From contig JYFJ02002417.1 in assembly GCA_000934665.2 (NCBI GenBank), forward strand, positions 1-57,450: a stretch of 57,450 nt of DNA. Reading direction: 5' to 3'. Origin of the DNA: Catajapyx aquilonaris. Lineage: Eukaryota. The notes beneath the pieces are model-generated. The model made no database searches and had not been told where the DNA came from. It saw nothing but the letters and a program-made list of their open reading frames with translations. Each line of letters begins with the position of its first letter. Within the stretch, counting starts at the first letter, position 1. The translations under genes were made by a program, and so were the position numbers. Positions 11,440-39,000 of the stretch are shown here, piece after piece.

Positions 11440-11651
11440 ATCGGATAAAAAAATTTATGATTGTGTCGAACATGGAAGCAAATCGATCAGTGTTTCACTT
11501 TATGAGATCACATGGCTCCACCCTTTCCCTTGTGTGCTCAAGTAGGCCTATAGGTCATATTGTGGCTGATGGTTATCGACAACTGGAAGGGTAAGTTCGA
11601 CATGCCCTTGGACATTCATTCGTTGTCCAAAGCACATAGTGAGCCGGTACT

Positions 11652-14357: not shown

Positions 14358-14579
14358 TCCTTTCCTGAGGATAAGAAAATGACTTCTTGCCAGTAATTTG
14401 GCACTTTGTCGTGCATGTGGTAATTTATTATTATAAATATAGAAATATTATAAATGTAAAGTTGTCAGTGCACCATATACGCGTAATTATCAGTTGTTGG
14501 AGTATGTGATTGAAAACATTTAGTAAGCGCTTCCCTGTTCAATTTCACTTCTTTCTTTGTTCTTGAAATACATTTCATG

Positions 14580-14712
14580 GGTCCTGATCAGAGTGGTCAA
14601 AGACGAAGGGTTCACACCCCAATACGCGAGACTATAGGACCACACGCACCGTACTCACCTACATTTTCTTCGAGCAAATGAACACACTGTACCAAAATTA
14701 TGTGCGAGATGA
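14580..14712 (+). pseudogene. Degenerate partial copy of the last exon of carrier 1
   Basis: GTCCTGATCAGAGTGGTCAAAGA...CCGTACTCACCTACATTTTCTTCGAGCAAATG matches 11290-11439, with a 21-bp deletion between two AAGGGTTC repeats and small insertions. Confidence 0.85.
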
Positions 14713-14932
14713 ATCGGATAAAAATTATGATTGTGACGAACATGGAGCAAATCGATCAATGTTTCACTTTATGAGATGACATGGCTCCACCCGTTCCCCT
14801 GTGTGCTCAAGTAGGCATATAAATCAACTTAAAATATGGTCATATTATGGGTGATTGTTATCGACAACTGGAAGCGTCCTACTTGCCCTTGGACACTCAT
14901 TCGTTGTCCAAAGCACACAGTGAGCCGGTACC

Positions 14933-16568: not shown

Positions 16569-17423
16569 TGGGACACTTTACCGCTCATATATTATTATTA
16601 TTATTATGAGACAAGCACAATAATATTGTTAGTGCACCATAATGAGCATATGTTGGAATAAATGGCTCTAAACATTATTATTAAGCACTTCTGTGTTCAG
16701 TTCACTGCTGGAATGTTTCTGAATTATGGAATAAGCTCATATGTACAGTATAAATAAACGTGAATTTCAGGAACGCATTGATGGTCATGTTACATGGCTG
16801 TAACCAGCTCATTCTCCCACAGCGCCCACAGACTCATAATTTCCTAATGGCCTAATAAATCGTTACGTCCTACATCATTTTCAACAAAGCAACCTTCTTC
16901 GACCGCGGAATGTTAGCTGCTGGATCACAATCTCCTCCCAATGTCAGTCACACTTTGTTGAGGTCGCATGCCGTGTACGGATAATATAAAATGGCACATG
17001 ATCACGCCTCTGACTTTGCTACAGCAACCTTCTCTTCTGATGGATTAGATTGACATTTGCGAGCTGGTCGGGATTTTGAATAATTCAAACTCACTTCAAT
17101 TTTTTTTTACCGTGTTGGAGTATTATATGGATATATAACGAGGTTTTGTGAGCTTCAACCCCAAAAGGTATAGCAATGGAAGACTCGCATCCTTCGACTT
17201 GTATGTGCTTTTTAAATATTTATAATGAAAATTTACAACGCATGTAAGGTGTGGTGCTATTAGATATCGACGTAATCGCGCCCTTAATTCAGCGATATTG
17301 ACTTAGTTTGATGACGTAATCCAAATCGATAAGACCACGCCTATTTGACTATAGAGCATGGTAAATATTTACATTGAGGGCTAGAAAATTCAGTGGGCAA
17401 GAGATTGTCTCTAGATTCAAGCC

Positions 17424-18976
17424 ATGGCGAAAGTGTCTTGCAATTCCTTCGAAAAAGAAGAGTATGTGGATTTTGCCACTGTTTTCAAGCCATTGGAAGT
17501 GATTTCAAAAATTGTAGGACTTATACCATGGAACTATCAGCTTTTCAAAAGATTCAGTTGGCCAGTGTTGAACTCAATTGTTTACACATTGTTGCTGGTT
17601 GTGGTGTTCGCCATAAGCGCTTTTGACCAACCTGCGTCATTTATGTTGAATTCGGATCATTCAACGACGAAGTATGCAGGAGCTGCAGTTTTCATATCAT
17701 TTTTCGTGAGTTGCACTGCAATTCTCTGGATGATCGCAAGGTACAAGTCGGTTAGAGAAATTGTAGAAGAACTGTCCTGCCTCGATTCAGCCATGGAATG
17801 GGAAGTAAACAAGAAAATGAAACGTACAGGAAACATTCTCGCCGCGTTTTCTGTGTTTGTATACTTCGGCTACGTACTGGCTCATTTGCTTCTTCTAGAT
17901 TGCAGCAAATTTACTAACGTCAATTATGGGCTCTTAGTCAGTCACATTAACTTTGGTAATAGCATTTTGGCGAGCCAGGCCATACTATTCGCAACTTCTG
18001 TGTGGAAGAGGATGGAAGTGATTAATTATAATATTAAAGAGTTTTGCGTCAAGTATCGTTTGTTGTCTGTAAATGACGAGAGCAAAATTCGGCAAAGAAA
18101 GATGGAAAAAGATATTGGCATGTTAGTCAGCCTGTACTTCAAACTCTGCGATGTGGTCAGGATGATAGAAAAAGTGTATGGATTATTCATTATCGTATAC
18201 ATAGCTTCATACATTGCGGAAGTAACTAGCAGTATTTACTATGGCATATACGTGATTTCAAATCAGCCGTCAAAAATTTATATTGCAATCAACGTTTTTA
18301 TAATTAGTTTCCATTCACTATTCACTATGGCCTTAATTTTTGCAATTGCAAAAATTCCACAGAAGGTAAGCCTCATTCATTTAATTACCTTTTTCTGACT
18401 TATCATAAATTTATACTATAAGAACACACTAAATATTAAAATAATGGCTAACAATTTTTTTAAATTTTATCACAGAACACTGGAATAATATTATTCACTT
18501 CTTTATAGGCATCTGCATCTCTTGACAGTCTACTACAAGTATGTCTACTTGACATCAGTCCTGAATGCAGAGTACAGGTAAACTTAAATCAGAACAGTGT
18601 TTTATTATATTCAATTATAAAATAATACGTATACAATTGCATTATTAGTATGTTATGATTTATGATAATCAATTTTATAGGTTCAAACACTGGTGACGAA
18701 ACTGTCTGGCTCTCCCGTCCAAGTCACTGCGTCTGATTTCTTTGCCATCAATCATGGACTGCTCACCACTGTGAGTTACAATTGGTTTTGGCATACCGCG
18801 CGATACTCTGTAGTAAAGAAAGGGTGTCGTGATTTATTATGATAACCTAACAGCTTTTCTCACAATAGATTGCTGGAGCAGTCGCAACCTATCTCATTGT
18901 GTTGGTGCAGTTCAAGAGTTCAGAACCTGCAAAATGCATCTGTAACATCACTTCACAGCACGAATCCAGCACATAG
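17424..18976 (+). CDS. Gustatory receptor GR-d
   Basis: Exons 17424-18365, 18509-18577, 18681-18770 and 18869-18976. C-terminal 'VTASDFFAINHGLLTTIAGAVATYLIVLVQF'. Confidence 0.92.
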
Positions 18977-19718
18977 CCTCTGCTTCACTGTCGTGTCTTC
19001 AGCACCATCGCTTGCAGATTTTAATCAACATTTTCCATTGCACTTTGCAGTCCCAAGTTTATTGTAATGTGTTTCGTCAATCACGTTAAAGATTTCTTGG
19101 TGTGACTTCATAAGCATATTGACGTATAGGCTCAAATTCTATGCGATCAGATTAGTCAGCTTTTTTTTGATGTTATTGGATGGCTATGCACCACAGTGTT
19201 TGATGGACTAATGAAAATCATTAAGGTGGTAATAAAAGCGAGCAGTCCATCACTTTTGGCATTTGCATTATTGTTGGAAGTATAGATTAATCCAGAAATT
19301 CATAAGTCCATACCTATACCGCCACTCACCAGTAGTTGATGCGACAATGCCTATAAATCATGTTATTGTTTTCTGGCCTCTACATTGTAGACGAATGATG
19401 CCAGGTCAGGCTTCAATAAAACGACATAAATTGTCAAAATCGACCACACCTTTGTTTATCGATACCGAATATACTCTCTTGAGAGAACGGAGATTGATGG
19501 TTATATTTTAGTCTTCGAAAATTATTCAGTCTTGTATAAACTGCGGTAGAGATGAGATGGTCTGCACTTTGTTACCCGTTTGTAGACCATTATTAACGTT
19601 TTACATTTTAATGTGCTACATTGATAATATTATGTTCATAATTTTTAAAATATTTCTGTAATTGGCCATATCCTGGTGAAGCTCACGAAGGACACTGCAT
19701 AACTTGAACTGTCTGAAC

Positions 19719-20970
19719 ATGGATCGACAGGCAGGGATTGGTGGTTGGACTGGAAAAACCTCCCTAGTTCTTCGCATCCGGAAAGTACTGGTCACCTGCA
19801 AAATTCTAGGTGCCATGCCAGTTAAGAACGTCTTGTCCTGCCACGGTGGACCTTTTCTCACGCGATTTCCTTGTGTTGAAAACCTGTGGTCATTGGTGTT
19901 GGCCTCGGTGGTCATGGCCTGTGTTTGGAATCAACACTCAATACTGCTGCTGGTCCTTGAGAATCATTGGATTGACCGATTTTCACTCCTCTTTTATCGC
20001 GTCTTCAGCAGTGTCACTTTCCTGGGTAACCTTGTGCTGATGACCTTCGCCGCCAGAGGAGGATGTCGAATCATGATCAAACTAGAAGCCGCAATGAAAC
20101 ATGTGCTGTCGTCTGATGACTCCAGGAAATTGGACACTCGCGTGTTCTGCATCATTCTGACTGTTTCATTTGCTTATGGTTCACTCGCCTTCCGGGAGGG
20201 ACATGATGTTCAATTGGTGATGCATCACATAGGAACCGCTGTGGTGGAAACGATCAACTTTTCATGCCTGGCCATAGTGACCCTGCTGTCACTGCTAACG
20301 TCTGCCATGTTTCGCAATATTAACAGCCGGATTCGCACTATCTGCTTACACCAATCGCAGCATGGCATGCCTCTGACCCAGTTAGAAAAGTGCTCCCATC
20401 TGCATTCGGTCGTTTCCAAAATTGCGAATTGCATCAGCAGCGATTACGGGCCTGTAATGGTACTTAATTATTGCGACATGACCATCTGCACTGTGTCGCT
20501 GACTTACGTGCTGATTGGAGATCTGCTGGACAAACAGTACTGGTATATTCCGTCGGATGTCATCAGAATTGTGCTAGTTATTGTTCGGTTCATTTGGGTG
20601 ACTTACGCTATCGGAACGGTCTCTCAGGAGGTGAGTATGAAGTGTTTATTTTCTTTGCACAACTGATGGTCAATCTTTTTGTGCCAGGCCAACACCTCTC
20701 TGTTGGATCTGGAGCAAGTCAGCATGAGAAGTCTGGACCACGACTGCCGACGTGAAATCCGATCTTTAATTCGGAAGTTGTCTGCAGTCAATCATGGAAT
20801 TACTGCAGCCGGTTTCTTCAGCATCAATCGCACACTCATTATTACAGTTAACTATACTTTTTCTGTTACATTTGGCATACTGTAATCAACTGTTGGTCCT
20901 ATCATTGCAGGTTGGTGGAGCTATAGTGTCATACATGGTGATCATGCTCCAGTTCAAGATTAGTGATTAA
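19719..20970 (+). CDS. Gustatory receptor GR-e (2-intron subfamily)
   Basis: Exons 19719-20630, 20688-20846 and 20911-20970. C-terminus 'ITAAGFFSINRTLIITVGGAIVSYMVIMLQFKISD*'. Confidence 0.9.
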
Positions 20971-21644
20971 TAGAGCCGATCTCCAGGCAGACCTAAAATG
21001 TCCACATTTCTGATAAGCACGTGACATTTTCTGAATTCCGTGCGATGAAAGTCGCTGAATCACGACCATTTTATTTGATTGTCTTCTTGAGTTGAATTCC
21101 TTTATTGAGTGATAAAAGTTACATAACCAAAGTACACCCATTTTCGGCTTCAACCTTGAAGCTTAAATTCATGCGATATGGGATAGAAAATCTTTAAGTT
21201 ACGCAATAAATAGGAGTGATCTGAAATCTATACCAAACGTGTTTCATGCTATGAAAATTATGCCCTTGGGCTAGTGCAATCATTAAAATATGACATCGTT
21301 CGCACGGAAGGATGTTGCTGGTACAACAACGGACACCGACGCACTTTATAGATTGTTTGGACCTTTACAAAAAGTTTTCATTTTGATGGATTAGAAGCTG
21401 TCTGTACAGCAATAGGCCGCCATTTGAGACTAAAGGAATAATTGATTACATGAGGATTAGATTATGCTTGCGCAAACTCTGGACATGTGTGTTCATGGCA
21501 ACGAGCCACACCCTTGTCACTCGATAATAGAAACCTGAGAGCGGCGTGTGCCATTAGAGGAAAGATTGACGTCGGAGTAACAGTACTTGACACTGAAAGC
21601 CTGAAAGTGCGATTCGCTTAATTGAACAGTATGACCTACTGAAA

Positions 21645-22942
21645 ATGAAGAAAACGAAAGAAATTGGTAGTTTCTGCACTGAAAAGCCATCACAAGTGCT
21701 TAGCATCCGGAAAGTTCTTGTCACCTGCAAAGTTCTAGGTGTGATGCCAGTGAAGAACGTTTTGTCCGGACAGGGTGGACAATTTCGCACTCATTTTCCT
21801 TGTGTTGAAAACTTGTGGTCACTCGTGCTGTCATGGGTGATTCTGGCCTGTGTCTGGGATTATCACGCAGTGTCGCTAATGGTGAACGAGCATCACTGGA
21901 TCGACCGATTTGCCTTAATCACCTATAACCTTTTCATTAGTGTTACTCTTGTAATCAACCTCGTTCTGATGATCCTCGCTGCCAGAGGATGTTGCCGAAT
22001 CATGAGCCAAATGGAAACCGCAATGAAACACGCGCTGTCGACTGAAGATTGCAGGAAATTGGACACTCAAGTTTTCTGCATCGTACTGATCGTTTTATTT
22101 GTGTATTGCGCAACACTTCTTGAAAATTTTGGACTGTATTATGTCGTGCACCATGTCGGAGCCGCTCTGGTGGAAACAGCCAACTTTTCATGCCTGGCTA
22201 TTGTTGCACTGCTGTCACTGCTAACTTCAGCTATGTTTCGCAACATAAACAGCCGGATTCGCACATTATGCAAACTCCAATCGCAGCATGGCGTGAGTCT
22301 GAACGAGCTAGAAAAATGCTCCCATCTACATTCAGTAATTGCCAAAATCGCGAATTGCATCAGCAGCGAGTACGGGCCTGTAATGGTACTCAATTATTGC
22401 GACATGACCATCTGCATGGTGTTGCTGCCATACGTGCTAATTGGAGACTTGATTGACCAGAAAAGCTGGTACATTTCTGGGAACATACTTAGAATAGTGG
22501 GCGTAATTTTTCGGTTCATTTGGGTGACTTACGCTATTGGGAGCGTCTCGCAAGAGGTGAGTAGACATCTCAACAAATTAAATCAGTAATATTTCTACAA
22601 GCAGAGTTCCTCACTTGTCTCATCATGCGTGTAAAATCAAATTTTTTGTGCAGGCCAACACCTCTCTGTTGGATCTGGAGCAAATCAGCATGAGAAGTCT
22701 GCACCACGACTGCAGACGTGAAATGCAAAATTTAATTCGCAAGTTGTCTGCAGCCAATCAGGGAATTACAGCTGCCGGTTTCTTCAGCATCAATCGCCCA
22801 CTCATTATTACGGTATTTATAACTGCTTTTTTTGTTACATTATTTTGGTTGTACAGTACCATAATGACTTATAACATTGCAGGTTGGTGGAGCCATAGTG
22901 ACGTACATGGTGATCATGGTCCAGTTCAAGATTAGTGATTAA
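21645..22942 (+). CDS. Gustatory receptor GR-f (2-intron subfamily)
   Basis: Exons 21645-22556, 22654-22812 and 22883-22942. C-terminus 'VGGAIVTYMVIMVQFKISD*'. Confidence 0.9.
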
Positions 22943-23207: not shown

Positions 23208-24638
23208 ATGAGAAATCCATCAATAAGTGAAGACAGATCAGGAAAACAGGTAGTACTTCCAAGCTACGCCAAGTTTATCTGCCCGTCAAGTTATTTAATA
23301 CCAACATGTTGTGCTGGTGGAGGACGACACGGAAAACCCTCAATTCCCTACCATGTCAAGTTTATCGTTGGAGGACTTTCAGGGTAAGACTATTGCAAGA
23401 ATTTTTCAAACTAATTTTTAAACAAGTCTTTGTAATATGCCGCAGCATGGGAGCAACCTTGGTCCTCCAGCCGTTGGAACTGGTCAAGAACTGGATGCAG
23501 CTGAGCGGAGAAGGCACAAACGCCAAGCCCTCCGGAGTGCTCGCCACAGCGTCCCAGATCATGTCAACGGACGGTTGGAGAGGCTTCTACCACGGAATGT
23601 CTGCTGGTCTTTTCCGACAGGCCACATACACCTCTACCAGGATAGGTATATACTCTCTTCTGCACGACATGGCCACCAGCATCAGAGGTCAGCCACCTCC
23701 ATTTGCGGCCAAAGTCATGTTCGGGATCATCGGAGGAGCCGTGGGTGCAGCAGCTGGGACACCAGCAGACGTGTGTCTTATCCGGATCACATCTGACCAC
23801 AGGCTGCCTCCTGCTCAGAGGAGGAATTACACCGGAGTGTTCAACGCCTTGAGTAGGATAATTAGAGAGGAAGGCTTCACGACACTGTGGTCCGGAATCT
23901 ACCCGACAATGGGAAGGGCCATGGTTGTCAACGGGTTTCAGCTGTCAACGTATTCTGAAGCGAAACATCAGCTGGCACGTACAGGTATTGACCAGATCCA
24001 GATTGACAATTCTATGAAATCTGTACAGTGTTGGACCGTTGTCGTTTTTATTGGTGGCACCACGAGCCGTTGGCGCCAAAAGAATTAATGGAATTGGCTG
24101 CTAATTCGTCACTTCGATTCGCTCTATTGCTGCCATCGTCTCATGTCACCACCAGTACGACACCTTTTCCGTATACAGTACATAAAGAACACAGAAATCA
24201 CTGTTTTAATTAATCTCAGGTATCTTTACGGATGGACTGGTGCTTTATATTGTGAGCAGCATGATATCTGGTTGGATCACATCCATAGTGTCACTACCGA
24301 TTGATATGGCCAAGACAAGGTAGGCCTATTGTATTTAAACATATTTTAATGTTCATGCTACCATTTTAAATTGATCAGCATATACTAGTCCTCGTTTTTC
24401 CAATCAAGTGATTGTTATTTGCAGGATACAAAACACGACGTGTCCTGCATCAGGAAGGCCGATTTACAAGAATACCTCCGATGTAGTGCTTAAAGTTATT
24501 AACACGGAAGGATTCTTCTCGCTCTGGAAAGGATTCTCTCCATATTACGTGAGATTGGGTCCACAATCTGTGCTCATTGCCATCTTATATGAGAAGATGG
24601 CCACGGCTTACCAAATGTGCTGCAATAACAAAGGATGA
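23208..24638 (+). CDS. SLC25A11: Mitochondrial 2-oxoglutarate/malate carrier-like protein, paralog 2
   Basis: Exons 23208-23383, 23446-23984, 24220-24319 and 24425-24638, with the same intron positions and phases as paralog 1. Motifs KFIVGGLSGMGATLVLQP, RQATYTSTRIG, GTPADVCLIR, SLPIDMAKTRIQ and SLWKGFSPYYVRLGPQ. Confidence 0.88.
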
Positions 24639-24867: not shown

Positions 24868-26288
24868 CTAGGATGTCACGTTGTAACAGTCGCATTGACC
24901 AGGTTCGGAACTCTTGAACTGCACCAGGACGATGAAGTACGTGGCAACTGCTCCGGCGATCTCATTACAGCAAATAATTTAATAATTATTAAGAAACATG
25001 TGTAAACAAATGGGACTTACAGTAGTGAGCAGCCCACGGTTAATGGCGAAAAAATTAGCTGCTGTCACTTGAATAGGAGCACTTGACATTTTTTGCACCA
25101 GAGCTTGGATCTGTCCAAATTACATTAAAATATCTCGTCAGCAATCGGGATATAAATAAGTACTCCACTAATTACTTTGTTGATTACCTGTACTCTGCAT
25201 TCAGGACTGACATCGCACAGGCATAATTGTAGAAGACTGTCAACAGAGGCAGATGCCTGAAACAATGTAATACGTGTAATAGCTCAGCAATGAGTGTTTT
25301 TTTATTTAAAAATATGTCACCAAAATAATGTCACGCTTACCTTGAGTGGAATTTTTGCCAGAGTAAAGATTAGGAACACGGCAAAGGAGGAATGCATGCT
25401 CATCATTAAGATATTCACAATACTAATAATAACAACAGTGTGTGTCGAATGTATAAATACGACGTAGTACAATCCGCATATCATTTCAAGTACAAATGAA
25501 GCGAAAAAGAAAATAATGAAAACGCCATACATCTCATTTATCATGCTGACTACATGGCAAAGTTTAAAGTAGAGGAAACCTAGCCTTGAAATTTCATCAT
25601 GGCATTTGCGAGACTGAAATTCGCAAACATTAATTTCGGTTGCGAGCCGAAGTTTAGAACAGAAAAGTTTAATTTCGTCGTTTATAACCTCCATTCTTTT
25701 CCACACTGCAGTAGAAAATATTATGACCTGACTGTTCACTACATTGCATCCTAAGAATATGAGGCTGACTGTGAAGGCGTAATGATAATCGGAAATATCG
25801 TTTTCCAGAATTAGCCAATGAGCCATGAAGTATGTGACGAAAGAAAATATGCAATACACAAATAGAATTCTGGCTCTAAGTCTCATTTGGTCATTAACGC
25901 CTGATTTCACGATCGAATCAAACTCGGACAGAATGTCCAAAATGCTAGTTGCTGATTTATCTTTCGTGACCATAATGAGAAAACCAATGTAATGGGACAA
26001 AACTGCACTCATGACACCAACACCTACGTAAAGAAACGTAGAATAATCTCCATGAAGCATGAAAAATGACACAAAGTTGTGGCAAATGAACATCACGAGC
26101 ATGGCAACAAGAAGCAGGACGTAAAATAGAGTGAATAACACCCTAGTGTGTAGTCTGGACAAACGCGAATTAGGCCAAGAGATAAGGCCCAAAACACGAG
26201 AAATAATTTCCACTGGTTTGAAAACACTGTGAATGTCAACAACTGTCTCGTCTTTTCCTAAGAAAACACACACCACCTGCGCCGCCAT
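24868..26288 (-). CDS. Gustatory receptor GR-g isoform B (proximal first exon plus shared exons 2-4)
   Basis: Exons 26288-25341, 25256-25188, 25110-25021 and 24960-24868. C-terminal 'IAGAVATYFIVLVQFKSSEPG'. Confidence 0.88.
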
Positions 26289-26664
26289 GACTTGTGTCTG
26301 AACCCAACTATACCTCTCGAATGTCGCAGAATTACAACGATCTACGCGATTATCATAGGGCGTGGCCAATTCTGATTATGATGAAGTGGATACTGTTCAA
26401 ATAAAGGTGTGGCATCGACATGAAAGCACTATGCAAATATTATGCAACACATTCTTAGCAAAATTGAGCCATTGATTTAATGGAATGGAATGTTTAAAAA
26501 ATCAACCTCTAGAATTTATTTTAAAACTATTGTTACACCTATCTGCACAACAACGTCGTTGCAAGTGGCGGAAATATGAATTTTTAAATAATTAAATTTT
26601 AATATAAAATTTTTCTTCATTTAAGAATTTTGGCAAAAGCAATGCAGTCGGCACGTAATCTTAC

Positions 26665-27636
26665 CTTGTGCGGAATTTGTCCCAGAGTGGTGGTAAGGTA
26701 CACGACGAATATTATGTCCAAACTCAGTGTCAGTACAGTCAAAACCAGGAAATATATTCCATGCTTTAACAGGTAGTCATGAGGAATTTCTGAAGTAAAG
26801 TACAGGCCGCAGACTAGCTCAAGAATCAGATCCGTAGAGACAGAGCAAAAATGGACAGTAAACTTCCTCCAACAGCTTTGTAACATCGCACAATTTGAAG
26901 TAAATGTATCCCAGCAGTGTGGTCATATCAGTGCTGTTTTCGCACCGAATAATAATTGGATTTGCTGATGAGACCTCGGGGCGAAAAAGCGGTAGTTTTA
27001 TATAATACGGCATGATTCGAGCGTTGACAATGTCCATCCTCTGTCCAACGGCGGAAGTAAAAAATATTAATTGTCCTTGATTAACTTTTGAGGCAGCGAA
27101 GAGATGGGTGGACACTAATATGAACATTTCGTCAGTGAACACTCGGTGCTCATGTGCAAGTGATACGGCAACAAAGTAGGAAATGGACACGACAATTATG
27201 TAAATAATAATTCCAATCGCTTTCTTCTTCAGGTTGGCATTGTTTGTCGCCATCATTAGATCAATTTGCGAGAAACGTTGCAAAATTGTGCTGACTGATT
27301 CGGGCTTGAGAGCCATTGAGACGAAGGCTGCTCCGTATATCAAAACATTGCTAACCGCAACATAACTGGTGTAAAGTGTCGTGTTGTGGTAAGCACCAAT
27401 GGTAAGAACAGACAGTGGTTGAATGGCCCAACTCACGGCCAGAATTCCCAGGAGCAACAGGTAGAAGAGAACGTTCCATCTGCTCAGCAATTTGAATTTC
27501 GAGCTGCACTTCAACTGCGAAGGAACCAGACCCAAACCGACCGAAATTGCTCTCAATGGCTTGACTTGAACACACCATGAATGTCCACTGAAGTAGCTTC
27601 TCTAATTGGCCGGGCTTCCGACGGCATGTTGTGCAT
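26665..27636 (-). pseudogene. Frameshifted alternative first exon (isoform A) of GR-g
   Basis: Paralog of 30155-31150, ending in 'GQIPHK|gtaaga'. A 5-bp duplication at ~27561 gives a premature stop (FKSSH*), and there is a 2-bp deletion at ~26827. It has no exons 2-4 of its own. Confidence 0.82.
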
Positions 27637-28034
27637 CCAGTAGACTGGAACAAGGTCCAGATTAAGCGAGATTAAGTGTACCAGGTCAGCCAATGCGCAG
27701 GAAGCAAACAAGCCCCGCCTACGCGTGACGTCACTTGTTGCGATAAGGCACAATTTGAATACTTTGCAATTTGATTACTATAACAGCCACATATTTTTGA
27801 TTGGCTTTTCAACATTGTTCGACATATAAAATTTGCAAAATTCTATTTGCACACTATGATAATAGGGTGGTTTCATTGAGTGGACTTAAACATTTATTTC
27901 TTTGCTCACCTATGTCAGCACAGGTGAATTTTTTGGAGTACTTCGACGTAGATATTGATGTACACACATTTGAACAAGAAATACACATACGTTTTAATAT
28001 AATTATGGATATGCTAATTACAACTACATTAATT

Positions 28035-28278
28035 GAGGCCGTTAGAGCAAATGTCCGTTTTTGCCACTTTAGACATACGACAGCCATCACGCTCAGAAGG
28101 CTACTCCAAGTTGGTGCAAAATTAGTGTCAGTCCTAAATTGGACATTTGACAAGTAGTTGGCATAATCTTATTTATGCTCCAAGGAGAATAATTGCCTAC
28201 GCCAACCATGGAGCATTTCTTGTCAATTTTCGTAGCATAATTTTTTTGTGCTTGGGCCACTTTTGTTATAAGAGCCTC
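28035..28278. mobile_element. MITE with GAGG...CCTC ends and AATT TSD (Sola-like)
   Basis: Imperfect TIRs GAGGCCGTTAGAGCAAATGT / ACTTTTGTTATAAGAGCCTC, flanked by AATT on both sides. The element is absent at the paralogous site near 24807. Confidence 0.72.
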
Positions 28279-28337
28279 AATTAACCTTCTCAGTTGTGAT
28301 GAGGTGTCTATGAGTGCCGTTCATGGTCCTTCAGCAT

Positions 28338-29810
28338 CTACGAGGATGTCACGTTGTAACAGTCGCACTGACCAGGTTCGGAACTCTTGAACTGCACCAG
28401 GACGATGAAGTACGTGGCAACTGCTCCGGCGATCTCATTACAACAAATAATTTAATAATTATTAAGAAACATGTGTAAACAAATGGAACTTACAGTGGTG
28501 AGTAGCCCACGGTTGATGGCGAAAAAATTAGCAGCAGTCACTTGAACCGGTGCACCTGACATTTTTTGCACCAAAGCCTGAATCTGTCGAAATTACATTA
28601 ATAATATCTCATCAGCAATCGGGATATAATTAAGTACTTCAATAATAACTTTATTGATTACCTGTACTCTGCATTCAGGACTGACATCGCACAGGCATAA
28701 TTGTAGAAGACTGTCAACAGAGGCAGATGCCTGAAACAATGTAATACGTGTATAGCTCAGCGAGCAGGCCTATTAAGGCCTATTAAAAGGCCTAATTAAA
28801 AGGCCTAATTTGTGTTTTTTTACTTATTATTTAAAAATATGTCACCAAAATAATGTCACGCTTACCTTGAGTGGAATTTTTGCCAGAGTAAAGATTAGGA
28901 ACACGGCGAAGGAGGAATGCATGCTGATCATTAAAATATTCACAATACTAATAATAACAACAGTGTGTGTCGAAAATATAAATGCGACGTAGTACAATCC
29001 GCATATCATTTCAAGTACAAATGAAGCGAAAAAGAAAATAATGAAAACGCCATACATCTCATTTATCATGCTGACTACATGGCAAAGTTTAAAGTAGAGG
29101 AAACCTAGCCTTGAAATTTCATCATGGCATTTGCGAGACTGAAATTCGCAAACATTAATTTCGGTTGCGAGCCGAAGTTTAGAACAGAAAAGTTTAATTT
29201 CGTCGTTTATAACCTCCATTCTTTTCCACACTGCAGTAGAAAATATTATGACCTGACTGTTCACTACATTGCATCCTAAGAATATGAGGCTGACTGTGAA
29301 GGCGTAATGATAATCGGAAACATCGTTTTCCAGAAATAGCCAATGAGCCATGAAGTATGTGACGAAAGAAAATATGCAATACACAAATAGAATTCTGCCT
29401 CTAAGTCTCATTTGGTCATTAACGCCTGATTTCACGATCGAATCAAACTCGGACAGAAGGCCCAAAATGCTAGTTACTGATTTATCTTTCGTGACCATAA
29501 TGAGAAAGCCAATGTAATGAGACAAAACTGCACTCAAGACACCAACACTCACGTAAAGAAACGTAGAATAATCTCCAAGCATGAAAAATGACACAAATTT
29601 GTGGCAAATGAACATCATCAGCATGGCAACAAGAAGCAGGACGTAAAAAAGGGTAAATAACACCCTAGTGTGCAGTCTGGACAAACGCGAATTGGGCCAA
29701 GAGATAAGGCCCAAAACACGAGAAATAATTTCCACTGGCTTGAAAACCCTGTGAATGTCAACGACTGTCTCGTCTTTTCCTAAGAAAACACACACCATCT
29801 GCGCCGACAT
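28338..29810 (-). CDS. Gustatory receptor GR-h isoform B (recent duplicate of GR-g B)
   Basis: Exons 29810-28866, 28730-28662, 28583-28494 and 28433-28338. Nearly identical to GR-g B. Confidence 0.88.
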
Positions 29811-30021
29811 GACTCGTGCCTAAAGCCAACTACCCCTCTAATGTCTCAAAATTACAACGCTCTTTACCCTAATATACGCGATTATCATAGGGCGTGGCCA
29901 TTCTGATTATGATGAAGTGGATACTGTTCAAATAAAGGTGCGTCATGAAAGCACGCAAATATTGTGCAACACATATTAGCAAAATAGCGTCATTAACTGG
30001 CAGTTAAAAATTCATATTTTG

Positions 30022-30023
<2 letters not shown>

Positions 30024-30069
<46 letters not shown>
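30024..30069. repeat. (TA)n microsatellite
   Basis: Pure TA run. Confidence 0.95.
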
Positions 30070-30071
<2 letters not shown>

Positions 30072-30154
30072 AATCTGTATCAAACGTCAGATGCAGAATG
30101 AAGTCATTTTAAGTGGCGGAATTTTGGCATAATCATTACAGTTTGCTATCTTAC

Positions 30155-31150
30155 CTTGTGCGGAAGTTGTCCCAGCGTGACGGTAAGGTACACGAGGAAT
30201 ATTATGTCCAAGCTCAGGGTAAGTAGAGTCAAAGTGATAAGATACATTCCATACTTTAACTGGTAGTCATGAGGAAGTTCCATGACAAAGTACAGGCCGC
30301 AGACTACATCAAGAATTACAGAGCCGTAGAGACTGATCAAAAATGGACCGTAAACTTCCTCTAACAACTTTGTAACATCGCACAATTTGAAGTGAAGGTG
30401 TCCCAGTGTGGTCATTTCAGTGCTGTTTTTGTTCCAAATTGGTTTTGCTGATGAGACATCGGGGCGAAAAAGCGGTAGTTTTAAACAATACGGCATGATT
30501 CGAGCGTTGACAATGTCCATCCTCTGTCCAACGGCGGAAGCAAAAAATATTAATTGTCCTTCCACAACTTTTGAGGCAGCGAAAAGATGGGCTGTCACTA
30601 ATATGAATAATTCGTCAGTGAACACTCGGTGAGCATGTGCAAGTGATATGGCAACCAAGTAAGAAATTGACACAACAATTACGTAAATAATAACTCCAAT
30701 TGCTCTCTTCTTCAGGTTGGCATTGTTCGACGCAATCATTAGATCAATTTGCGAGAAACGTTGCAAAATTGTGCTGACTGACTCGGGCTTGAGAGACATT
30801 GAGACGAAGGCTGCTCCGTATAACAACACATTGCTAACCGCAGCATAACTGGTGTAACGTGTCGTTTTGTGGTGAACACCAATGGTAAGCGTAGACAGTG
30901 GTTGAATGGCCCAACTCACGGCCAGAATTCCCAGGAGCAACAGGTAGAAGAGAGCGTTCCATCTGCTCAGCAATTTGAATTTCCAGCCGCACTTCAACTG
31001 CGAAGGAACCAGACCCAAAGCGACCGAAATTGCTCTCAAGGGCTTGAACACACCATGAATGTCCACTGAGGTATCTTCCGTATTTGGCCAGGCTTCCGAC
31101 GACATGTTCTGCATCCAGTAGACTGGAGTTCGATCGATGAAAAGTCTCAT
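30155..31150 (-). CDS. Gustatory receptor GR-h isoform A: alternative long first exon, predicted to splice to shared exons 28730-28338
   Basis: Intact ~330-codon GR exon 1 (VDIHGVFKPLRAISVALGLVP...KLCDVTKLLEEVYG) ending at the phase-0 donor AAG|GTAAGA. No downstream exons lie before the next first exon. The true start could be 31150, 31114 or 31105. Confidence 0.82.
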
Positions 31151-31396
31151 TATACTACTTTTGTTCCAAAGGGCGTGACTCTCTAGTCGATGGCATACAA
31201 TGTCAGAGTACGCGCACGTTTGACAGAACTTTAGTAAGAATCTAATTGCAATAGATTTAAAATATCAGAAATGTTGCATTCATAAGGATAAATAAGATAA
31301 TGTTTACTATACAGTACACTATACAATCATATCATGACTTGTGACAAAGCTTTCAGTGTTAAACGTTGTGATATTTGTCTTGCGCAGAATTCCCAA

Positions 31397-32719: not shown

Positions 32720-33422
32720 TTTCGGTAAGGTATTCTGAGAGTGACTGAATCACACTTTCAGCAATGAAGTGTCGAGCACTGCTACTTCGACGTCAGCCAT
32801 TACTCTAATGGCTCTCAGGTTATATTATCGAGAAACATGGGTGTGTCCTTCTGCCATGGACACACATAGGCAGATGGCTTACACAATCATAATCTATTCA
32901 ACATTACTTTTCTTCATTCACGAGTTGCTTCCTATTGGTCCATTGATATTTGCATTATTCAATCCAAAAGGCATCAAAGCCACAAAAATAAAAATAAACC
33001 CATTTTAAAACATTCACAAAATATGATTATAAATGTGTCATCTTTCCAAGCCCACGTCATCGTCATTTCCATTGCGTGCACTGACATTTCATGCTTGTAG
33101 AAGTCCCGAGGGCGTATTCAGAGCATGAAAATTAATACGTTTGGTATAGATTTCAGATCACTTTTGTATAATCCGTCACGTGCCACTATAAACCTCAAGA
33201 TCTTCTATGCCATTTCACAAATTAAGCGTCAAAGCGAAGTTAGAAAGGAAGGCTTGGATTACATAACTTTCAGCATTCAGTAAAATTTTAGTCACGGATT
33301 CATCACGCGAAGGGAATCCATAATAAGTGGTCGGGAATCACTTACGAAAAGAAATGTTACATGGAAGTCATTTTTGACATTATTTTCCAGACTTCCTTAT
33401 AAATCACTAATCTTGAACTGGA

Positions 33423-33944
33423 TGCGTTATCTCCGGGCTGTTTGTGGGGTTACCAAGTTCGATAGGATTAGGAATAAGGAGATTTTGCAGAGGTGTAATG
33501 TTAAGGAGACTGCTAAAGATAAGGTGTGTAGGTCTACTTTAAGGTGGTTTGGCCATGTGGAGAGGATGAAGGAGGAGGAGATTGTGAAGAAGGTTTATTG
33601 GGGTGGAGTAGTTGGTAAGAGGGGCAAGGGTAGGCCTAGGAAGACATGGTTGGACCAGGTGGGCCAGTGTCTTAAGGGTGTTGCTAGTGTTAAGCCGAGA
33701 CGTTCTTGTGTCAATAGGACCATGGACGTGGCTGAGGCTAGGGTTGTTTGTTTGGATAGGTGTAAATGGCGTAGGTTAATTAATGGGTAAATAGGTAAAT
33801 TTGTCTGAGGATAAGGTGATGTCTGAGGTGGGCAGGGGTGAGGGGTGGGACAGGTTGTTTTTAGGTTTATTCTCATGAGTTTTATTAGTTCATATGTTGC
33901 GTCTCCCTTCATCGCTGACTACCCCTCATAGGGAAATGTCGTGA

Positions 33945-34160: not shown

Positions 34161-35116
34161 AACAACAACAACAACAACCCAACATATGAACTAATAAAAC
34201 TCACGAGAATAAACCTAAAAACAACCTGCCCACCTCAGACATCTCCTTATCCTCAGACATATTTATCTATTTACCCATTAATTAACCTACGCCATTTACA
34301 CCTATCCAAACAAACAACCCTAGCCTCAGTCACGTCCATGGTCCTATTGACACAAGAACGTCTCGGCTTAACACTAGCAACACCCTTAAGACACTGACCC
34401 ACCTGGTCCAACCATGTCTTCCTAGGCCTACCCTTGCCCCTCTTACCAACTACTCCTCCCAAATAAACCTTCTTCACAATCTCCTCCTCCTTCATCCTCT
34501 CCACATGGCCTAACCACCTTAGAGTAGACCTACACACCTTATCTTTAACAGTCTCCTTAACATTACACCTCTCCAAAATCTCCTCATTCCTAATCCTATC
34601 GAACTTGGTAACCCCACAAACAGCCCGGAGATAACTCATCTCTGTAGCCAACACCCTACTCTTATGCCTATCTGACCAAACCCACGCTTCACTACCATAC
34701 ACAAGAGAAGGAACAATAACGTGAGAGTAGACAGACAACCTACAGGCAGAAGATAAGTCCTTATTTCTAGAAAACTTACTTGTGGCACCTATTACCTACG
34801 GTTGAAGGTGTAGGAGTGCAGTTTGGTGATGAGTTAGTTAGTCACTTGCTGTATGCAGATGATTCTGCCCTTCTGGCGGAGAGTGAGGCTGATTTACAGT
34901 TGATCCTATGCAAGTTAGATAATGTTTGTGAAAAGAGGGGTATGAGGATTAACGTAGATAAGACTAAGGTATTGGTATTTGAGAGGGGACAGCAGCTTTC
35001 TCCTTGTATGTTGCAGGTACGAGGAAAACTGGTTGAGCAGGTCAGCCAGTTTGTATACCTGGGTAGTGTTTTTGAGTAGAATTGATGGGGAAATAGACAG
35101 GAGAGTTAGTTCTGGG
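34161..35116 (-). mobile_element. Second RTE copy, with an inverted 5' segment containing the RT YADD motif
   Basis: The minus-strand 3' part (34161-~34797) encodes 'PSLVYGSEAW...LRWLGHVERM'. The plus-strand part (~34798-35116) encodes 'LLYADDSALLAESEADLQ...INVDKTKVL...FVYLGS'. The TSD TTGCCTGCAGACAAC is at 34146-34160 and 35117-35131. Confidence 0.9.
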
Positions 35117-36068: not shown

Positions 36069-39000
36069 TTACTTAAAATAGTCTGACCAACGAAGAGCAG
36101 GTCTAAGTGTGAAAAAGTACACCAGTTCTATTCCACTGATGAGGCTGAATCCAATAAATAAACCCACGATGCCTCCAAATGCAGCTGGTTGAAAACAACA
36201 ATGGGCCAAAATTACTGAATGTACCTAAATAAATAATCAAGAAGATGATCACTTACCAATAAGATCAACCCATTTGTACTTCGTGTCGTTTTTGTACTTG
36301 ATGTAAGTGAAGCCATCAAAATATGTTCGGAGCAACACTAGGGTGGATCTGAAATTCAAGTGAGTTTGACATCTTGCAGACAATGTGATGTTAATAATAA
36401 TAATTATTTGCACACTCACTTGTTCACTAATTTTTCAATTTCGTCAGGCAAAGCCACGTCCTCTGGACGAACAGGAAACTCTGCCGAGGTGATTTGTACG
36501 GAGTAGTCGAGCTTATCGCAATTGGACTTACACTTGGGGCATCGCATGGACTCTTCGGGGTCATCCAGGCCTTCTACATCATCTTCAGGTTTAATTGACG
36601 AAAACATTTCTGAAACAGCAAAATATGTGTATTTTTTTACTTTAAAAAGGTCGCAGCATGAATTAATAAGCCGAAGGTATTATTACTCAAATGTCTGTTG
36701 ATGCATTTAATCCCTTTGAAGTCACATGTTTTTGGTGGATCTGTAATAAAACCGTGTAATGCTTCCAGAAATGCTGTTATTAAAAACTCTGGCTTACCAA
36801 TTTGGGAATATATGTAGGGTATACATTTGCATTTCTTATACATCATTTCCACTGTGCATTCCAATAGACAGTTGGCATGAGAGTATGACTCGTAGAATTT
36901 GAGTCCTCTTTCGTCTGTGAATTTGCATTTCCTGCTTGGGCTGGCCCTGACATCCTTTGTGCTTTGGGTGTAACTCGCTTCAATGGCCGCAAATATCTCT
37001 TTGCCCGCGTCTGCCAGGAATCCCTGGGTTGCAACGTAAGGGAAATCATTCGGATGGTGAATAGTCACTTTGAATCCATCGATGTTGTCGGTAGGAGCAA
37101 GATAGTCTGAGATTTCTGGGTTCAACAGGACCGTAAGACCCATCGTAGGACCAGCTCCGTTCACTCTTTTAGGTTTGAACGGTTTGGGTTCATTGTTATT
37201 GCTTAAAGGCACCGTTTGTTCTTCGCCAGACACTAATTTTTCAGTCTCCTCATTTCCATCAGATTCTGAAGTAGTGTCGTTCAGGGGAGTTTCATCGTAA
37301 AGGTCACTCTCATACCTGCGAAAGCAGAAAATGTTGAAATTAAAAGAGAATCAAAACTGCCCACAAAAATAAAATAATGTAACCAGAAATTCTCAACTAG
37401 AGCACTACCAGTATGTACGAGTAAAATTTTAAATATCGGTAATAAGTGAAACTACTCTAACAAGATTGTATGAGATGGGACCTAAAATCTGCAATAAATA
37501 AACAACTAAATAAATGCAAGACAAAAAGCTTCCTTCAGAAATTCTGGAATATCTGTCATTCATTCATTCATTCATCAGCTTTATTTATTTCATTAGGTCG
37601 GCTGCAGCAACTGCCACTTTGCCAATCTGTGCATAAGAGATGTTACTTATTGGACCACCTTGCATGTCATACTTTGGAATTTCCTTCCTTAGACCTTCAG
37701 AATTAAAGGACCAGCAAAATCCCTCGTCGGTTCTACGCAGCTCAAATATTGTTTGGCAATTTACAGGCTTGCCAATCCACCAGCAACGAATTGCCATTCT
37801 TTCTATCGGCTGGATAACCTGCAACAAACATAAAAATATATTTTTTTCTGACTGAAGTCTATAAAACAATGCTATCCAAAGATGAATCAGAAAATGGAAA
37901 ACAACCGAATTCATGAGGGAATCCGATAAATTTTTGTTTTCTCGAAAAAGTTGTTCTAATAAGGAGTCTTCATCATGTCCATCATCATCCAGAGACACAT
38001 CTCCAATCGCTACCAGGACCTTTACTGCTTTTTCCATTATGTCGGAATCACGCTGATAGTACTGATACCACCTGAAAAAAAAGCAAATGAAATATTAGTA
38101 CAGCATTATATTTTATCACTTATCCATCCGACTAGGTTTGGTTGCATCAGTAATAATCACTTTGTACAATTTGAGGAGCTCCCAAGCAAAAGCAGCTAAC
38201 TCCATAATAAGAACTTGTACAGGAGAGGAGAAAAACCTGCCATTTGGAAACGGTTGCAACGGTATAGCTGATAGGGGAAGTCATGAGATGGCATTTTTAT
38301 GCATTTTTAAACGTAAGCTGCTTTTGCTTGATACAAACTTATTTCACGGCTTGGAGTTAGCTGGTTTTGCTTAGGACACGCATATTATGGACCATTTTAC
38401 ACCCATTTCTATGTGGCTGTGATGCACCATATTTGGGTACTTGGTAGAGGACAACATGGAGAATTCAATCCCAGTTCAAACTCATTTTTCCATTTTATAT
38501 TGGAGTTAGCTGCTTTTGCTCGGGAGCTCCTCATTTTGGTCTGTACACTTACGGTTTCATGCGTGAAACTGCGTTAATCCTTTCACGCGACGCTTTGTTC
38601 ACATTACAGATTGTAACTCCAGGGAACGGAATTTCCCAAATTGGGCGTCCAGTTGACTCAATAGCTGTCGCTGTCTCGCCTTGTGCATATGTTTGAAAGT
38701 ATGGTGTCAACAGTATGATGGCCCCGACAATTGCTCCTACGCAACATAAAAACCACACGATCCTGGAACACAAAAGAGTGATTCATCTTCCGCAATAATA
38801 TCATTATCATTATCGCACCTTTCAAATTTGTATGTCTCCTCGTCAACAATGTACTTGAACCCGTGCAATGATGTGTTGTTGCAATATTCTTTCATTGTTT
38901 CTTCCAAGAAATCCATTGGAGTGTTAGTGTTCCTTCCGCTACAATATGCCGGATTGTTGGCCAAATTCGCGATGGTTTTTTTCGCTTCCCATGCCTTCAG

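What the first reader, a model, noticed from the sequence alone, without database searches (positions are those of the whole stretch)
24868..31150. Duplicated two-isoform GR locus: alternative first exons with shared TM7 exons, and one isoform lost in one copy
Seen: each ~3-kb unit has two divergent long first exons (A then B), both ending at the same phase-0 donor, but only one set of exons 2-4. In the right unit both A (31150-30155) and B (29810-28866) are intact. In the left unit B is intact while A carries +5 and -2 indels. Known: the same architecture occurs in Drosophila Gr28b and Gr39a. Inference: an independent origin of a variable-N/constant-C receptor cassette, then whole-locus duplication with isoform-specific pseudogenisation. 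Cross-unit splicing could add further combinations.
Basis: partly seen in the sequence, partly recalled or inferred. Interest (0 to 1): 0.7.

Follow-up and report, generated by a model that had tools for sequence, protein, structure and literature searches.

The report
Duplicated two-isoform taste receptor locus
This is a tandemly duplicated arthropod taste-receptor gene in which two different long first exons appear to share one short tail, an arrangement already well known in insects, with one first exon broken in one copy.

Summary
On the minus strand lie two tandem units of about 3 kb. Each has two long gustatory-receptor (Pfam 7tm_7) first exons, A then B, and only one set of three short C-terminal exons carrying the TM7 motif. 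All other GR first exons in the window (7 of 7) have their own C-terminal set.

The right A exon is intact. The left A has a +5 and a -2 frameshift, and it also lacks the right copy's upstream promoter-like region, because the duplication boundary lies 12 nt before the likely start codon. Read-derived contigs show both frameshifts. They give both units about the depth of the flank, so the units are not split haplotypes.

No RNA data could be found, so the A-to-exon-2 splice is unproven. Indirect evidence favours it: the A copies differ by replacements far more conservative than chance (P about 0.0001; wrong-frame controls are null), with no stop codons and a second-codon-position deficit. Against it, dN/dS is about 0.9-1.0.

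The architecture matches Drosophila Gr39a/Gr28b and many cockroach and beetle GR loci, where pseudogenic isoforms are also reported. It is a new member of a known kind. Cross-unit splicing has no support.

The parts
30155..31150 (-). Right unit, first exon A. It is an intact open frame. The likely start codon is the ATG at 31114 (320 codons), and the first in-frame ATG is at 31150 (332 codons). It ends at the donor AAG|GTAAGA.
   Evidence: Pfam 7tm_7 scores 32.0 bits against a cut-off of 26.6, profile positions 2-287 of 370. Donor sequence.
31149..31177 (-). Promoter-like elements upstream of right A: CACGCCCT (31177-31170) followed 15 nt later by TATAAT (31154-31149). Left A lacks them.
   Evidence: The same CACCC-box-then-TATA arrangement lies upstream of both B exons and of other GR first exons. 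Promoter function is inferred.
29811..30154 (-). A-B spacer of the right unit (344 nt). It holds a (TA)n run at 30013-30078 and the B promoter-like region. It contains no C-terminal exon remnants.
28866..29810 (-). Right unit, first exon B (315 codons, intact), ending at the donor AAG|GTAAGC.
   Evidence: Pfam 7tm_7 scores 53.5 bits. Donor sequence.
28662..28730 (-). Right unit, shared exon 2 (23 codons).
   Evidence: Acceptor TTGTTTCAG|G.
28494..28583 (-). Right unit, shared exon 3 (30 codons).
28338..28433 (-). Right unit, shared exon 4 (31 codons plus stop). It carries the TM7 motif TYFIVLVQF.
28034..28274 (-). Insertion of about 240 nt present only in the right unit's 3' flank. It has 11-nt terminal inverted repeats (TTAATTGAGGC) and resembles a miniature transposable element.
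   Evidence: Contig word depth is 71-144 in bin 28010-28243, against about 20-40 nearby.
27650..27941 (-). Unique junction sequence between the end of the right unit and the start of the left unit.
   Evidence: no other match in the window. A 403-nt read-derived contig (27507-27909) bridges the left A boundary.
26665..27649 (-). Left unit, A pseudo-exon. It has a +5 (27569-27560) and a -2 (near 26827) frameshift plus in-frame +6 and +3 insertions. The donor AAG|GTAAGA is retained. The upstream region of right A is absent.
   Evidence: Contigs 27507-27909 and 26380-27033 cover both frameshifts with 0 differences in 3 of 3 DNA runs laid.
25341..26288 (-). Left unit, first exon B (316 codons, intact).
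25460..25795 (-). A 336-nt tract in exon B identical between the units (equals right 28985-29320). Gene conversion is the probable cause.
   Evidence: The contig over it has about twice the depth of unit-specific contigs.
25188..25256 (-). Left unit, shared exon 2.
   Evidence: 100% protein identity to the right copy.
25021..25110 (-). Left unit, shared exon 3.
   Evidence: 93% protein identity to the right copy.
24868..24960 (-). Left unit, shared exon 4 (30 codons plus stop), with the TM7 motif TYFIVLVQF.

Best explanation
WHAT IT IS
This is a gustatory-receptor gene of the Gr39a/Gr28b type. Two tandem long first exons, A and B, each encode most of the receptor. Each appears to have its own promoter, its own start codon and a phase-0 splice donor. 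Each would be joined alternatively to one shared set of three short exons that encode TM7 and the C-terminus. The result would be two receptors with different ligand-facing bodies and the same tail.

HOW IT AROSE
The locus arose locally within a lineage-specific GR cluster, most simply when an upstream paralogue (A) lost its own three C-terminal exons. It was then duplicated in tandem as a unit of about 2.9 kb.

WHAT HAPPENED SINCE
- The upstream (right) unit keeps both isoforms.
- The downstream (left) A copy began 12 nt before its start codon, so it lacked the old promoter region.
- Left A nevertheless seems to have stayed under protein-level selection for much of the time since.
- Left A has now been killed by two frameshifts, so the left unit encodes only the B isoform.
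- The B exons are partly homogenised by gene conversion.

SHOWN VERSUS INFERRED
- Shown: the anatomy, the frameshifts, the reality of the duplication and the selection signatures.
- Inferred: the A-to-exon-2 splice, promoter use and the order of events.
For: FAMILY
- A and B score 32.0 and 53.5 bits on Pfam 7tm_7, above the 26.6 cut-off. Both cover profile positions about 2-290 of 370, so the rest must come from exons 2-4.
- TYFIVLVQF lies in exon 4.
- Language-model look-alikes of B are arthropod 7tm_7 clusters, scoring 0.96.

ARCHITECTURE
- There are 11 GR first exons in the window but only 9 C-terminal exon sets. Exactly the two A exons lack their own set.
- No remnants of C-terminal exons lie in the A-B spacers.
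- Both joined frames are open.
- The A donor AAG|GTAAGA is kept in both units, although the spacer just beyond it is 24% diverged with 10 gap runs.

SELECTION ON A AFTER THE DUPLICATION
- The 47 single-step replacements between right and left A have a mean BLOSUM62 score of +0.45, against -0.38 expected from random single-base changes (P = 0.0001-0.0003).
- The same differences read in the two wrong frames show no such excess (P = 0.93 and 0.59) and include 5 and 2 stop-involving changes.
- Exon B, as a positive control, gives +0.60 against -0.28 (P = 0.025).
- None of the 95 substitutions creates a stop, where 4.1 are expected (P = 0.015).
- Second codon positions carry 20 of the 95 differences, where 31.6 are expected (P = 0.006).
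- Right A fits a profile of the 9 other paralogues better than left A, 194.3 against 172.8 bits (sign-flip one-sided P = 0.045). On Pfam the scores are 28.5 against 24.1 bits.
- A has no C-terminal exons of its own in either unit. Protein-level selection after the duplication therefore implies use with the shared exons.

PROMOTER-LIKE ELEMENTS
- Right A has a CACGCCCT box followed by TATAAT, like both B exons and other GR first exons.

THE DUPLICATION IS REAL
- In run X1, contigs specific to the left unit have depths of 36-40, contigs specific to the right unit 28-34, and the flank contig 28.6.
- The contig over the identical B tract has depth 56.9. Runs X2 and X3 show the same pattern.

PRECEDENT
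- Gr39a has four large exons alternatively spliced to three small exons. Its exon A has frameshifts in D. sechellia and is significantly degraded in D. erecta (PMC2204066, abstract and passages).
- Cockroach GR genes have long first exons spliced into three shared short final exons, and some isoforms are pseudogenic (PMC6175461, passages).
Against: - There is no transcript evidence of any kind. No RNA run holding the stretch was listed.
- Counted dN/dS for the A pair is 0.88 (NG86) to 1.01 (YN00). The non-synonymous share is 47 of 63 single-difference codons, against a neutral expectation of 0.73. By that measure A looks neutral, whereas B gives 0.35 and the shared exons 0.05.
- Polarising A differences with the nearest paralogue is symmetric: 8 sites favour right as ancestral and 7 favour left, and 42 of 61 sites are uninformative.
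- An intact frame is partly an ascertainment effect. For one lineage alone the chance of no stop is 0.13.
- Gene fragments do occur in this cluster, for example an orphan exon 3-4 fragment at 9256-9453.
- The promoter motif would survive in a recently orphaned exon too.
- The DNA runs laid are from one sample, which may be the assembly's own source.
Confidence: 0.6

Rival explanations
1. A is an orphan 5' fragment in both units. It would be the remains of a neighbouring GR gene whose three C-terminal exons were deleted before the duplication. It is not spliced to B's exons, and each unit is simply a one-isoform B gene with a decaying relic upstream. Right A is still open by chance.
For: - dN/dS for the A pair is 0.88-1.01, and the non-synonymous share equals the neutral expectation.
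- Outgroup polarisation is symmetric at 8:7.
- A diverges faster than B, 9.8% against 3.2% of nucleotides.
- One A copy is already frameshifted.
- Another partial GR fragment lies in the cluster at 9256-9453.
- The phase-0 donor is a family-wide feature that any relic would keep.
Against: - Replacements between the A copies are strongly conservative in the true frame only (P = 0.0001-0.0003; wrong frames P = 0.93 and 0.59).
- There are no stops among 95 substitutions (P = 0.015), and second codon positions are depleted (P = 0.006).
- A has only 4 indel events in about 970 nt, against 21 gap runs in 774 aligned non-coding nt. Low-complexity sequence inflates the non-coding figure.
- Right A fits the family profile better than left A.
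Confidence: 0.27
2. A is transcribed, but its product is not a full receptor. It might be a truncated protein without TM7, or a regulatory upstream transcript that modulates B expression.
For: Right A has promoter-like elements and an open frame. Nothing here shows which acceptor, if any, its donor uses.
Against: - The donor is in the same phase and at the same homologous position as in all functional paralogues. The joined frame is open through TM7.
- Conservative replacements along the whole exon point to selection on a folded membrane protein.
- No precedent was seen in the papers read.
Confidence: 0.06
3. The two units are an assembly artefact: two haplotypes of one locus laid in tandem, or a collapsed or mis-joined repeat.
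For: The units are 87-94% identical and adjacent. The region between them is repetitive, and contigs end in loose ends there, at 27934-28155.
Against: - Contigs specific to each unit have about the same depth as the single-copy flank contig: 36-40 and 28-34 against 28.6 in X1. The pattern is the same in X2 and X3.
- The tract identical in both units has about twice that depth (56.9, 70.7 and 44.3). Split haplotypes would give half depth for each unit and single depth for the shared tract.
- A contig bridges the left A boundary into the junction sequence (27507-27909).
- The left copy begins inside the A 5' end with novel upstream sequence, and the right copy carries a private insertion.
- Caveat: contig depth is a coarse measure, and all the runs are from one sample.
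Confidence: 0.03

Closest known systems
Drosophila Gr39a (and Gr28b, Gr23a): alternatively spliced gustatory receptor genes
   Same: [quoted passage not shown] They are spliced alternatively to three small constitutive exons that encode TM7 and the C-terminus.
- Exons are duplicated, lost and pseudogenised. Gr39a exon A has frameshifts in D. sechellia (PMC2204066, abstract and passages).
- Here, too, there is a long exon, three short exons and one frameshifted A copy.
   Different: - Only two first exons per unit.
- The whole locus, shared exons included, is duplicated in tandem within one genome.
- No transcript evidence.
- No sequence relationship beyond family level: A and B found no relatives at E <= 0.001. 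The origin is therefore independent of the fly loci.
Alternatively spliced GR loci of cockroach and beetles (e.g. BgerGr60a-m, DponGr38a-d, TcasGr214, AglaGr99)
   Same: [quoted passage not shown]
- Mutually exclusive N-terminal exons lie consecutively with shared C-terminal exons. This is often inferred from gene structure alone (PMC6720082, passages).
   Different: Those loci have up to 13-30 first exons. Here there are two, plus a duplicated copy of the locus. The species is unknown, and its GRs are not close to any in the libraries searched.
Ancestral arthropod GR gene structure (single-isoform genes)
   Same: [quoted passage not shown] The other 7 GR genes in this window have this structure.
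   Different: The two A exons have no C-terminal exons of their own and sit 344-376 nt upstream of another first exon.

Membership tests
Arthropod gustatory receptor family (Pfam 7tm_7, PF08395) | Match to the 7tm_7 profile above Pfam's gathering score | tested here: met
   A scores 32.0 bits and B 53.5 bits against a cut-off of 26.6. Of the 7 first exons tested, 6 pass; the exon at 7185-8120 does not.
Arthropod gustatory receptor family (Pfam 7tm_7, PF08395) | TYhhhhhQF motif in TM7 near the C-terminus | tested here: met
   ATYFIVLVQF lies in exon 4 of both units. The motif is named as in Text S1 of PMC4244043.
Arthropod gustatory receptor family (Pfam 7tm_7, PF08395) | [quoted passage not shown] | tested here: met
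   Exon lengths are 945-996, 69, 90 and 93-96 nt. All exon boundaries fall between codons.
Arthropod gustatory receptor family (Pfam 7tm_7, PF08395) | Seven transmembrane helices | tested here: inconclusive
   A crude hydropathy scan finds 7 segments in B's first exon and only 4 in A's at the threshold used. It finds 1 in the shared exons in both cases. No structure was predicted.
Alternatively spliced GR locus of the Gr39a/Gr28b type | [quoted passage not shown] | tested here: met
   Right unit: the A start is the ATG at 31114 (or 31150), with donor AAG|GTAAGA. The B start is the ATG at 29810, with donor AAG|GTAAGC.
Alternatively spliced GR locus of the Gr39a/Gr28b type | One shared set of short C-terminal exons downstream of the last long exon, and none between the long exons | tested here: met
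   tblastn with the C-terminal exons of all paralogues finds one set per unit and nothing in the spacers.
Alternatively spliced GR locus of the Gr39a/Gr28b type | Transcripts joining each long exon to the shared exons | not testable with these tools
   Only DNA contig runs were listed, and no RNA holder.
Alternatively spliced GR locus of the Gr39a/Gr28b type | Each long exon kept under purifying selection | tested here: inconclusive
   - B has dN/dS 0.35.
- A has dN/dS 0.88-1.01. Even so, its replacements are conservative (P = 0.0001-0.0003), it has no stops (P = 0.015) and second codon positions are depleted (P = 0.006).
- Left A is frameshifted.
Alternatively spliced GR locus of the Gr39a/Gr28b type | A separate promoter for each first exon | tested here: inconclusive
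   A CACGCCCT box followed by a TATA-like element lies upstream of right A, right B and left B. Related boxes lie upstream of other GR first exons. Of 13 CCACRCC matches in the window, 6 lie in sense orientation within 300 nt upstream of a GR start. Function was not tested.

The most novel reading that the evidence does not exclude
This may be an independently evolved alternative-first-exon taste-receptor locus in an arthropod lineage whose GRs have no detectable relatives among 1.84 billion representative proteins. It would be caught shortly after a tandem duplication of the whole locus. Both A copies stayed under protein-level selection after the duplication, even though the left copy lost its original promoter. 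One copy was then lost by frameshifts, while the B exons are kept similar by gene conversion. That would be a natural snapshot of how alternative splicing and gene duplication trade off in chemoreceptor evolution.
Probability: 0.5. Interest if true: 0.35.

Novelty: new member of a known kind. Interest (0 to 1): 0.25.

Why it matters
Chemoreceptor repertoires grow both by gene duplication and by adding alternative first exons. Loci that show both processes, with one isoform just lost, help to time and order those steps.

For annotation, the practical point is threefold:
- The right unit should probably be modelled as two isoforms (a and b).
- The left unit should be modelled as one isoform plus a pseudo-exon.
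- The A start codon is probably the ATG at 31114.

Beyond that, the finding repeats a pattern already described in flies, cockroaches and beetles.

Tried and rejected
RNA EVIDENCE
- The look-up of sequencing runs (kind any) listed 4 DNA contig runs of one sample and one run of unknown kind. No RNA holder was listed.
- Laying X1, X2, X3 and X5 gave only DNA contigs. X5 had one partial contig in the repeat region.
- No cover was laid over 28946-29413 in the right B exon. The tool says a hole proves nothing, and this stretch coincides with the tract identical to left B.

RELATIVES ELSEWHERE
- The search for homologous proteins with exon A (0 of 3538 candidates scored) and exon B (0 of 2103) gave nothing.
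- phmmer of A against 1.84 billion representatives gave 0 hits.
- No orthologue could therefore be used to polarise changes.

GENOME AND EARLIER NOTES
- The window's own genome is not held.
- Earlier scan notes gave nothing in 3 look-ups.

SPECIES
- The best relatives of the neighbouring mitochondrial carrier are only 57-58% identical and come from many phyla.
- Two short peptides of A and B were sought in the centipede genome paper's supplements and not found. This covers the first 12 files and Text S1; the GR table (an old .doc) and the FASTA file could not be read.
- That paper says its GRs end at TYhhhhhQ[S/T], unlike those here, so the window is probably not that species.
- The species stays unresolved beyond 'arthropod-type GRs'.

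ANALYSES THAT GAVE LITTLE
- Outgroup polarisation with the 29%-identical paralogue was uninformative (8:7, with 42 of 61 sites matching neither).
- The hydropathy count of transmembrane segments was too crude to use.
- An A-to-B in-frame fusion was considered and rejected. B has no acceptor or pyrimidine tract before its ATG, and the only AG nearby would be out of frame.


Full report
WHAT IS IN THE SEQUENCE

The window is eukaryotic DNA with about 40% G+C and short introns. It holds a cluster of gustatory-receptor (GR) genes.

Stop-to-stop frames of at least 150 codons include 11 long GR first exons:
- Six lie on the plus strand, starting near 7179, 11643, 14924, 17415, 19680 and 21597.
- Five lie on the minus strand: left B, left A, right B, right A, and one at 32749-31715.

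Of 7 first exons scanned, 6 match Pfam 7tm_7 above its cut-off. A scores 32.0 bits and B 53.5, over profile positions about 2-290 of 370. The exon at 7185-8120 does not pass.

A scan for the TM7 motif and a tblastn with the three short C-terminal exons find nine C-terminal exon sets, plus one orphan exon 3-4 fragment at 9256-9453. Each of the 7 other first exons has its own set. Each minus-strand unit has one set for two first exons.

The finding's coordinates are exact.
- Right unit: A 31150-30155, B 29810-28866, exons 2-4 at 28730-28662, 28583-28494 and 28433-28338.
- Left unit: B 26288-25341, exons 2-4 at 25256-25188, 25110-25021 and 24960-24868.
- All boundaries fall between codons, and both joined frames are open to the stop.

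No remnant of a C-terminal exon lies in either A-B spacer (344 and 376 nt). The best tblastn E is 0.14 over 11 residues.

LEFT A

Aligned to right A, left A has:
- a +5 insertion, a tandem TCAAG at 27569-27560;
- a -2 deletion, where the TA at right 30318-30317 is missing;
- in-frame +6 and +3 insertions.

Reading from its ATG, the frame stops five codons after the +5 insertion. The 260-codon frame between the two shifts is open.

Homology between the units starts at right 31127 = left 27649. That is 12 nt upstream of the ATG at 31114 and downstream of the ATG at 31150. Left A therefore lacks everything upstream of that point.

From the ATG at 31114, the conserved VDIH.VFKP motif falls at the same residue numbers as in B. 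The ATG at 31150 overlaps a TATAAT. I therefore take 31114 as the likely start codon. This is an inference.

THE DUPLICATION

The unit runs right 31127-27942 = left 27649-24715.
- The right unit carries a private insertion of about 240 nt at 28274-28034, with 11-nt terminal inverted repeats.
- The units are separated by 292 nt of unique junction sequence.

Read-derived contigs of three DNA runs from one sample were laid on the region.
- Contigs at 27507-27909 and 26380-27033 cover both frameshifts with no differences in all 3 runs.
- In run X1, contigs specific to the left unit have word depths of 36-40. Contigs specific to the right unit have 28-34, and the flank contig 28.6.
- The contig over left B 25302-26011 has depth 56.9. 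Runs X2 and X3 show the same pattern.

That contig contains a 336-nt tract identical in both units, right 29320-28985 = left 25795-25460. Its doubled depth is what two real copies predict. Two split haplotypes would give half depth for each unit.

Two caveats apply. Contig depth is coarse, and the sample may be the assembly's own source.

IS A USED?

No RNA holder was listed, so there is no direct test. The same phase-0 donor occurs at the homologous position in all 11 first exons. [quoted passage not shown] The donor therefore does not by itself argue for alternative splicing. I looked instead for selection on A after the duplication.

Evidence against constraint on A:
- Nei-Gojobori dN/dS for the A pair is 0.88 (dN 0.102, dS 0.116, 322 codons). 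The YN00 estimate is 1.01.
- B gives 0.35, and the shared exons 0.05 (dS 0.21).
- The non-synonymous share is 47 of 63 single-difference codons. The neutral expectation is 0.73.
- Polarisation with the nearest paralogue (29% identity) is symmetric, 8 to 7, and 42 of 61 sites match neither copy.

Evidence for constraint on A:
- None of the 95 substitutions makes a stop, where 4.1 are expected. P is 0.015 for both lineages and 0.13 for one.
- Second codon positions carry 20 of the 95 differences, where 31.6 are expected (P = 0.006).
- The 47 single-step replacements are much more conservative than random single-base changes with the same spectrum. Mean BLOSUM62 is +0.45 against -0.38 (P = 0.0001-0.0003).
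- Read in the two wrong frames, the same differences show no excess (P = 0.93 and 0.59) and include 5 and 2 stop-involving changes.
- Exon B behaves like A in this test, at +0.60 against -0.28 (P = 0.025).
- Right A fits a profile of the nine other paralogues better than frame-projected left A, 194.3 against 172.8 bits. The sign-flip one-sided P is 0.045, and the B copies differ by only 1.5 bits. On Pfam, the stretch of right A between the two frameshift sites scores 28.5 bits, against 24.1 for the matching stretch of left A.
- A has 4 indel events in about 970 nt, against 21 gap runs in 774 aligned non-coding nt. Low-complexity sequence inflates the non-coding figure.

My reading is that radical changes were filtered from A after the duplication, probably in both copies for much of the time. 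Neither unit has C-terminal exons for A, so the simplest source of that selection is a receptor made by joining A to the shared exons. The high counted dN/dS suggests relaxed constraint, as reported for duplicated Gr39a exons (PMC2204066, abstract). I put this reading at about 0.6 and the orphan-fragment reading at about 0.27.

PROMOTER-LIKE ELEMENTS

- CACGCCCT occurs three times in the window, where 0.55 are expected. All three lie upstream of a first exon: right A at 31177-31170, right B at 29896-29889 and left B at 26364-26357.
- Each is followed 12-16 nt later by a TATA-like element.
- Related CCACRCC boxes lie in sense orientation within 300 nt upstream of GR starts in 6 of 13 matches.
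- Left A lacks the box. Function is inferred only.

OTHER DIVERGENCE DATA

B, together with its upstream 184 nt, is 94% identical between the units. The C-terminal region is 92% identical and A 88.5%. The 336-nt identical run in B is far longer than the surrounding 3-9% divergence would allow, so it points to gene conversion.

COMPARISON WITH WHAT IS KNOWN

[quoted passage not shown] Exon A has frameshifts in D. sechellia and is significantly degraded in D. erecta (PMC2204066, abstract and passages).
[quoted passage not shown] Some of these splices have RNA-seq support, and some isoforms are pseudogenic (PMC6175461, passages).
- Beetle GR loci have up to 30 such variants, often inferred from structure alone (PMC6720082, passages).
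- The Daphnia GR paper contains no word beginning 'alternative' or 'spliced' in its main text (PMC2680840).

The present locus therefore meets the structural criteria of this known kind.

Its origin is independent of the fly loci. A and B are only 29% identical to each other, and B is 38% identical to the neighbouring single-isoform paralogue at 17415. The shared exons are 73-83% identical to that paralogue's own exons. Nothing related was found outside the window. Independent origins are, however, the rule in this family.

The species could not be named. B's nearest language-model clusters are arthropod 7tm_7 families.

VERDICT

The architecture, the real duplication and the loss of A in the left unit are shown. 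Use of A is supported only by selection signatures. Cross-unit splicing has no support.
- This is a new member of a known kind, of modest interest.

Noticed in passing
window 7179-32749: The window holds a GR cluster of 11 long first exons and 9 C-terminal exon sets in two opposed arrays: the plus strand over 7179-22939 and the minus strand over 32749-24868. Three subfamilies stand out. The exons at 11643 and 14924 are 78% identical. Those at 19680, 21597 and 32749 are 68-78% identical. The A/B group is the third.
   Followed up: partly
window 9256-9453 (+): An orphan GR fragment holds only exon-3-like and exon-4-like pieces (73% and 58% identical to the shared exons). Its TM7 motif is decayed (TYLIVLTQL), and no first exon lies nearby. 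It sits just downstream of the gene at 7179-8556.
   Followed up: no
window 13995-14054 and 16479-16532 (+): The two paralogues starting at 11643 and 14924 have TN instead of TY in the TM7 motif (ATNLIILAQF). Both copies share the change.
   Followed up: no
window 9942-10751 (+) and 23231-24088 (+): Two mitochondrial carrier genes are interspersed in the GR cluster. The second matches Pfam Mito_carr at E = 3e-33. The first is at most 57-58% identical to 2-oxoglutarate/malate carriers from many animal phyla.
   Followed up: partly
window 28034-28274: An insertion of about 240 nt is present only in the right unit's 3' flank. It has 11-nt terminal inverted repeats (TTAATTGAGGC...GCCTCAATTAA) next to TTAA. 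Contig depth is 2-5 times that of the surroundings, so it looks like a multi-copy miniature transposable element.
   Followed up: partly
upstream of GR first exons, e.g. 31177-31149, 29897-29870, 26365-26340, 17335-17341, 21506-21512: A CACCC-type box (CCACGCC or CCACACC) followed by a TATA-like element recurs 60-140 nt upstream of GR start codons. Of 13 CCACRCC matches in the window, 6 lie in sense orientation within 300 nt upstream of a GR start.
   Followed up: partly
window 33284-33790 (+) and 34271-34795 (-): Two similar open frames of 168 and 174 residues lie in inverted orientation, with no Pfam match. From recall, their sequence resembles the C-terminal part of retrotransposon reading frames. 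This was not tested.
   Followed up: no
window 447-2342 (-), 36637-38094 (-), 41854-45481 (-): Other sensory or channel genes flank the cluster. A 631-residue single-exon frame has a weak ligand-gated ion channel match (29.1 bits, below the 30.8 cut-off). There are two exons of an amiloride-sensitive sodium channel (E = 2e-32) and exons of a calcium-channel alpha2-delta subunit.
   Followed up: partly
window 24500 joined to 31397 (table 5): One contig in each of three runs joins these two places on opposite strands. It most likely reflects the similar last exons of the inverted paralogues at 22883-22939 (+) and 31456-31403 (-), not a rearrangement.
   Followed up: no
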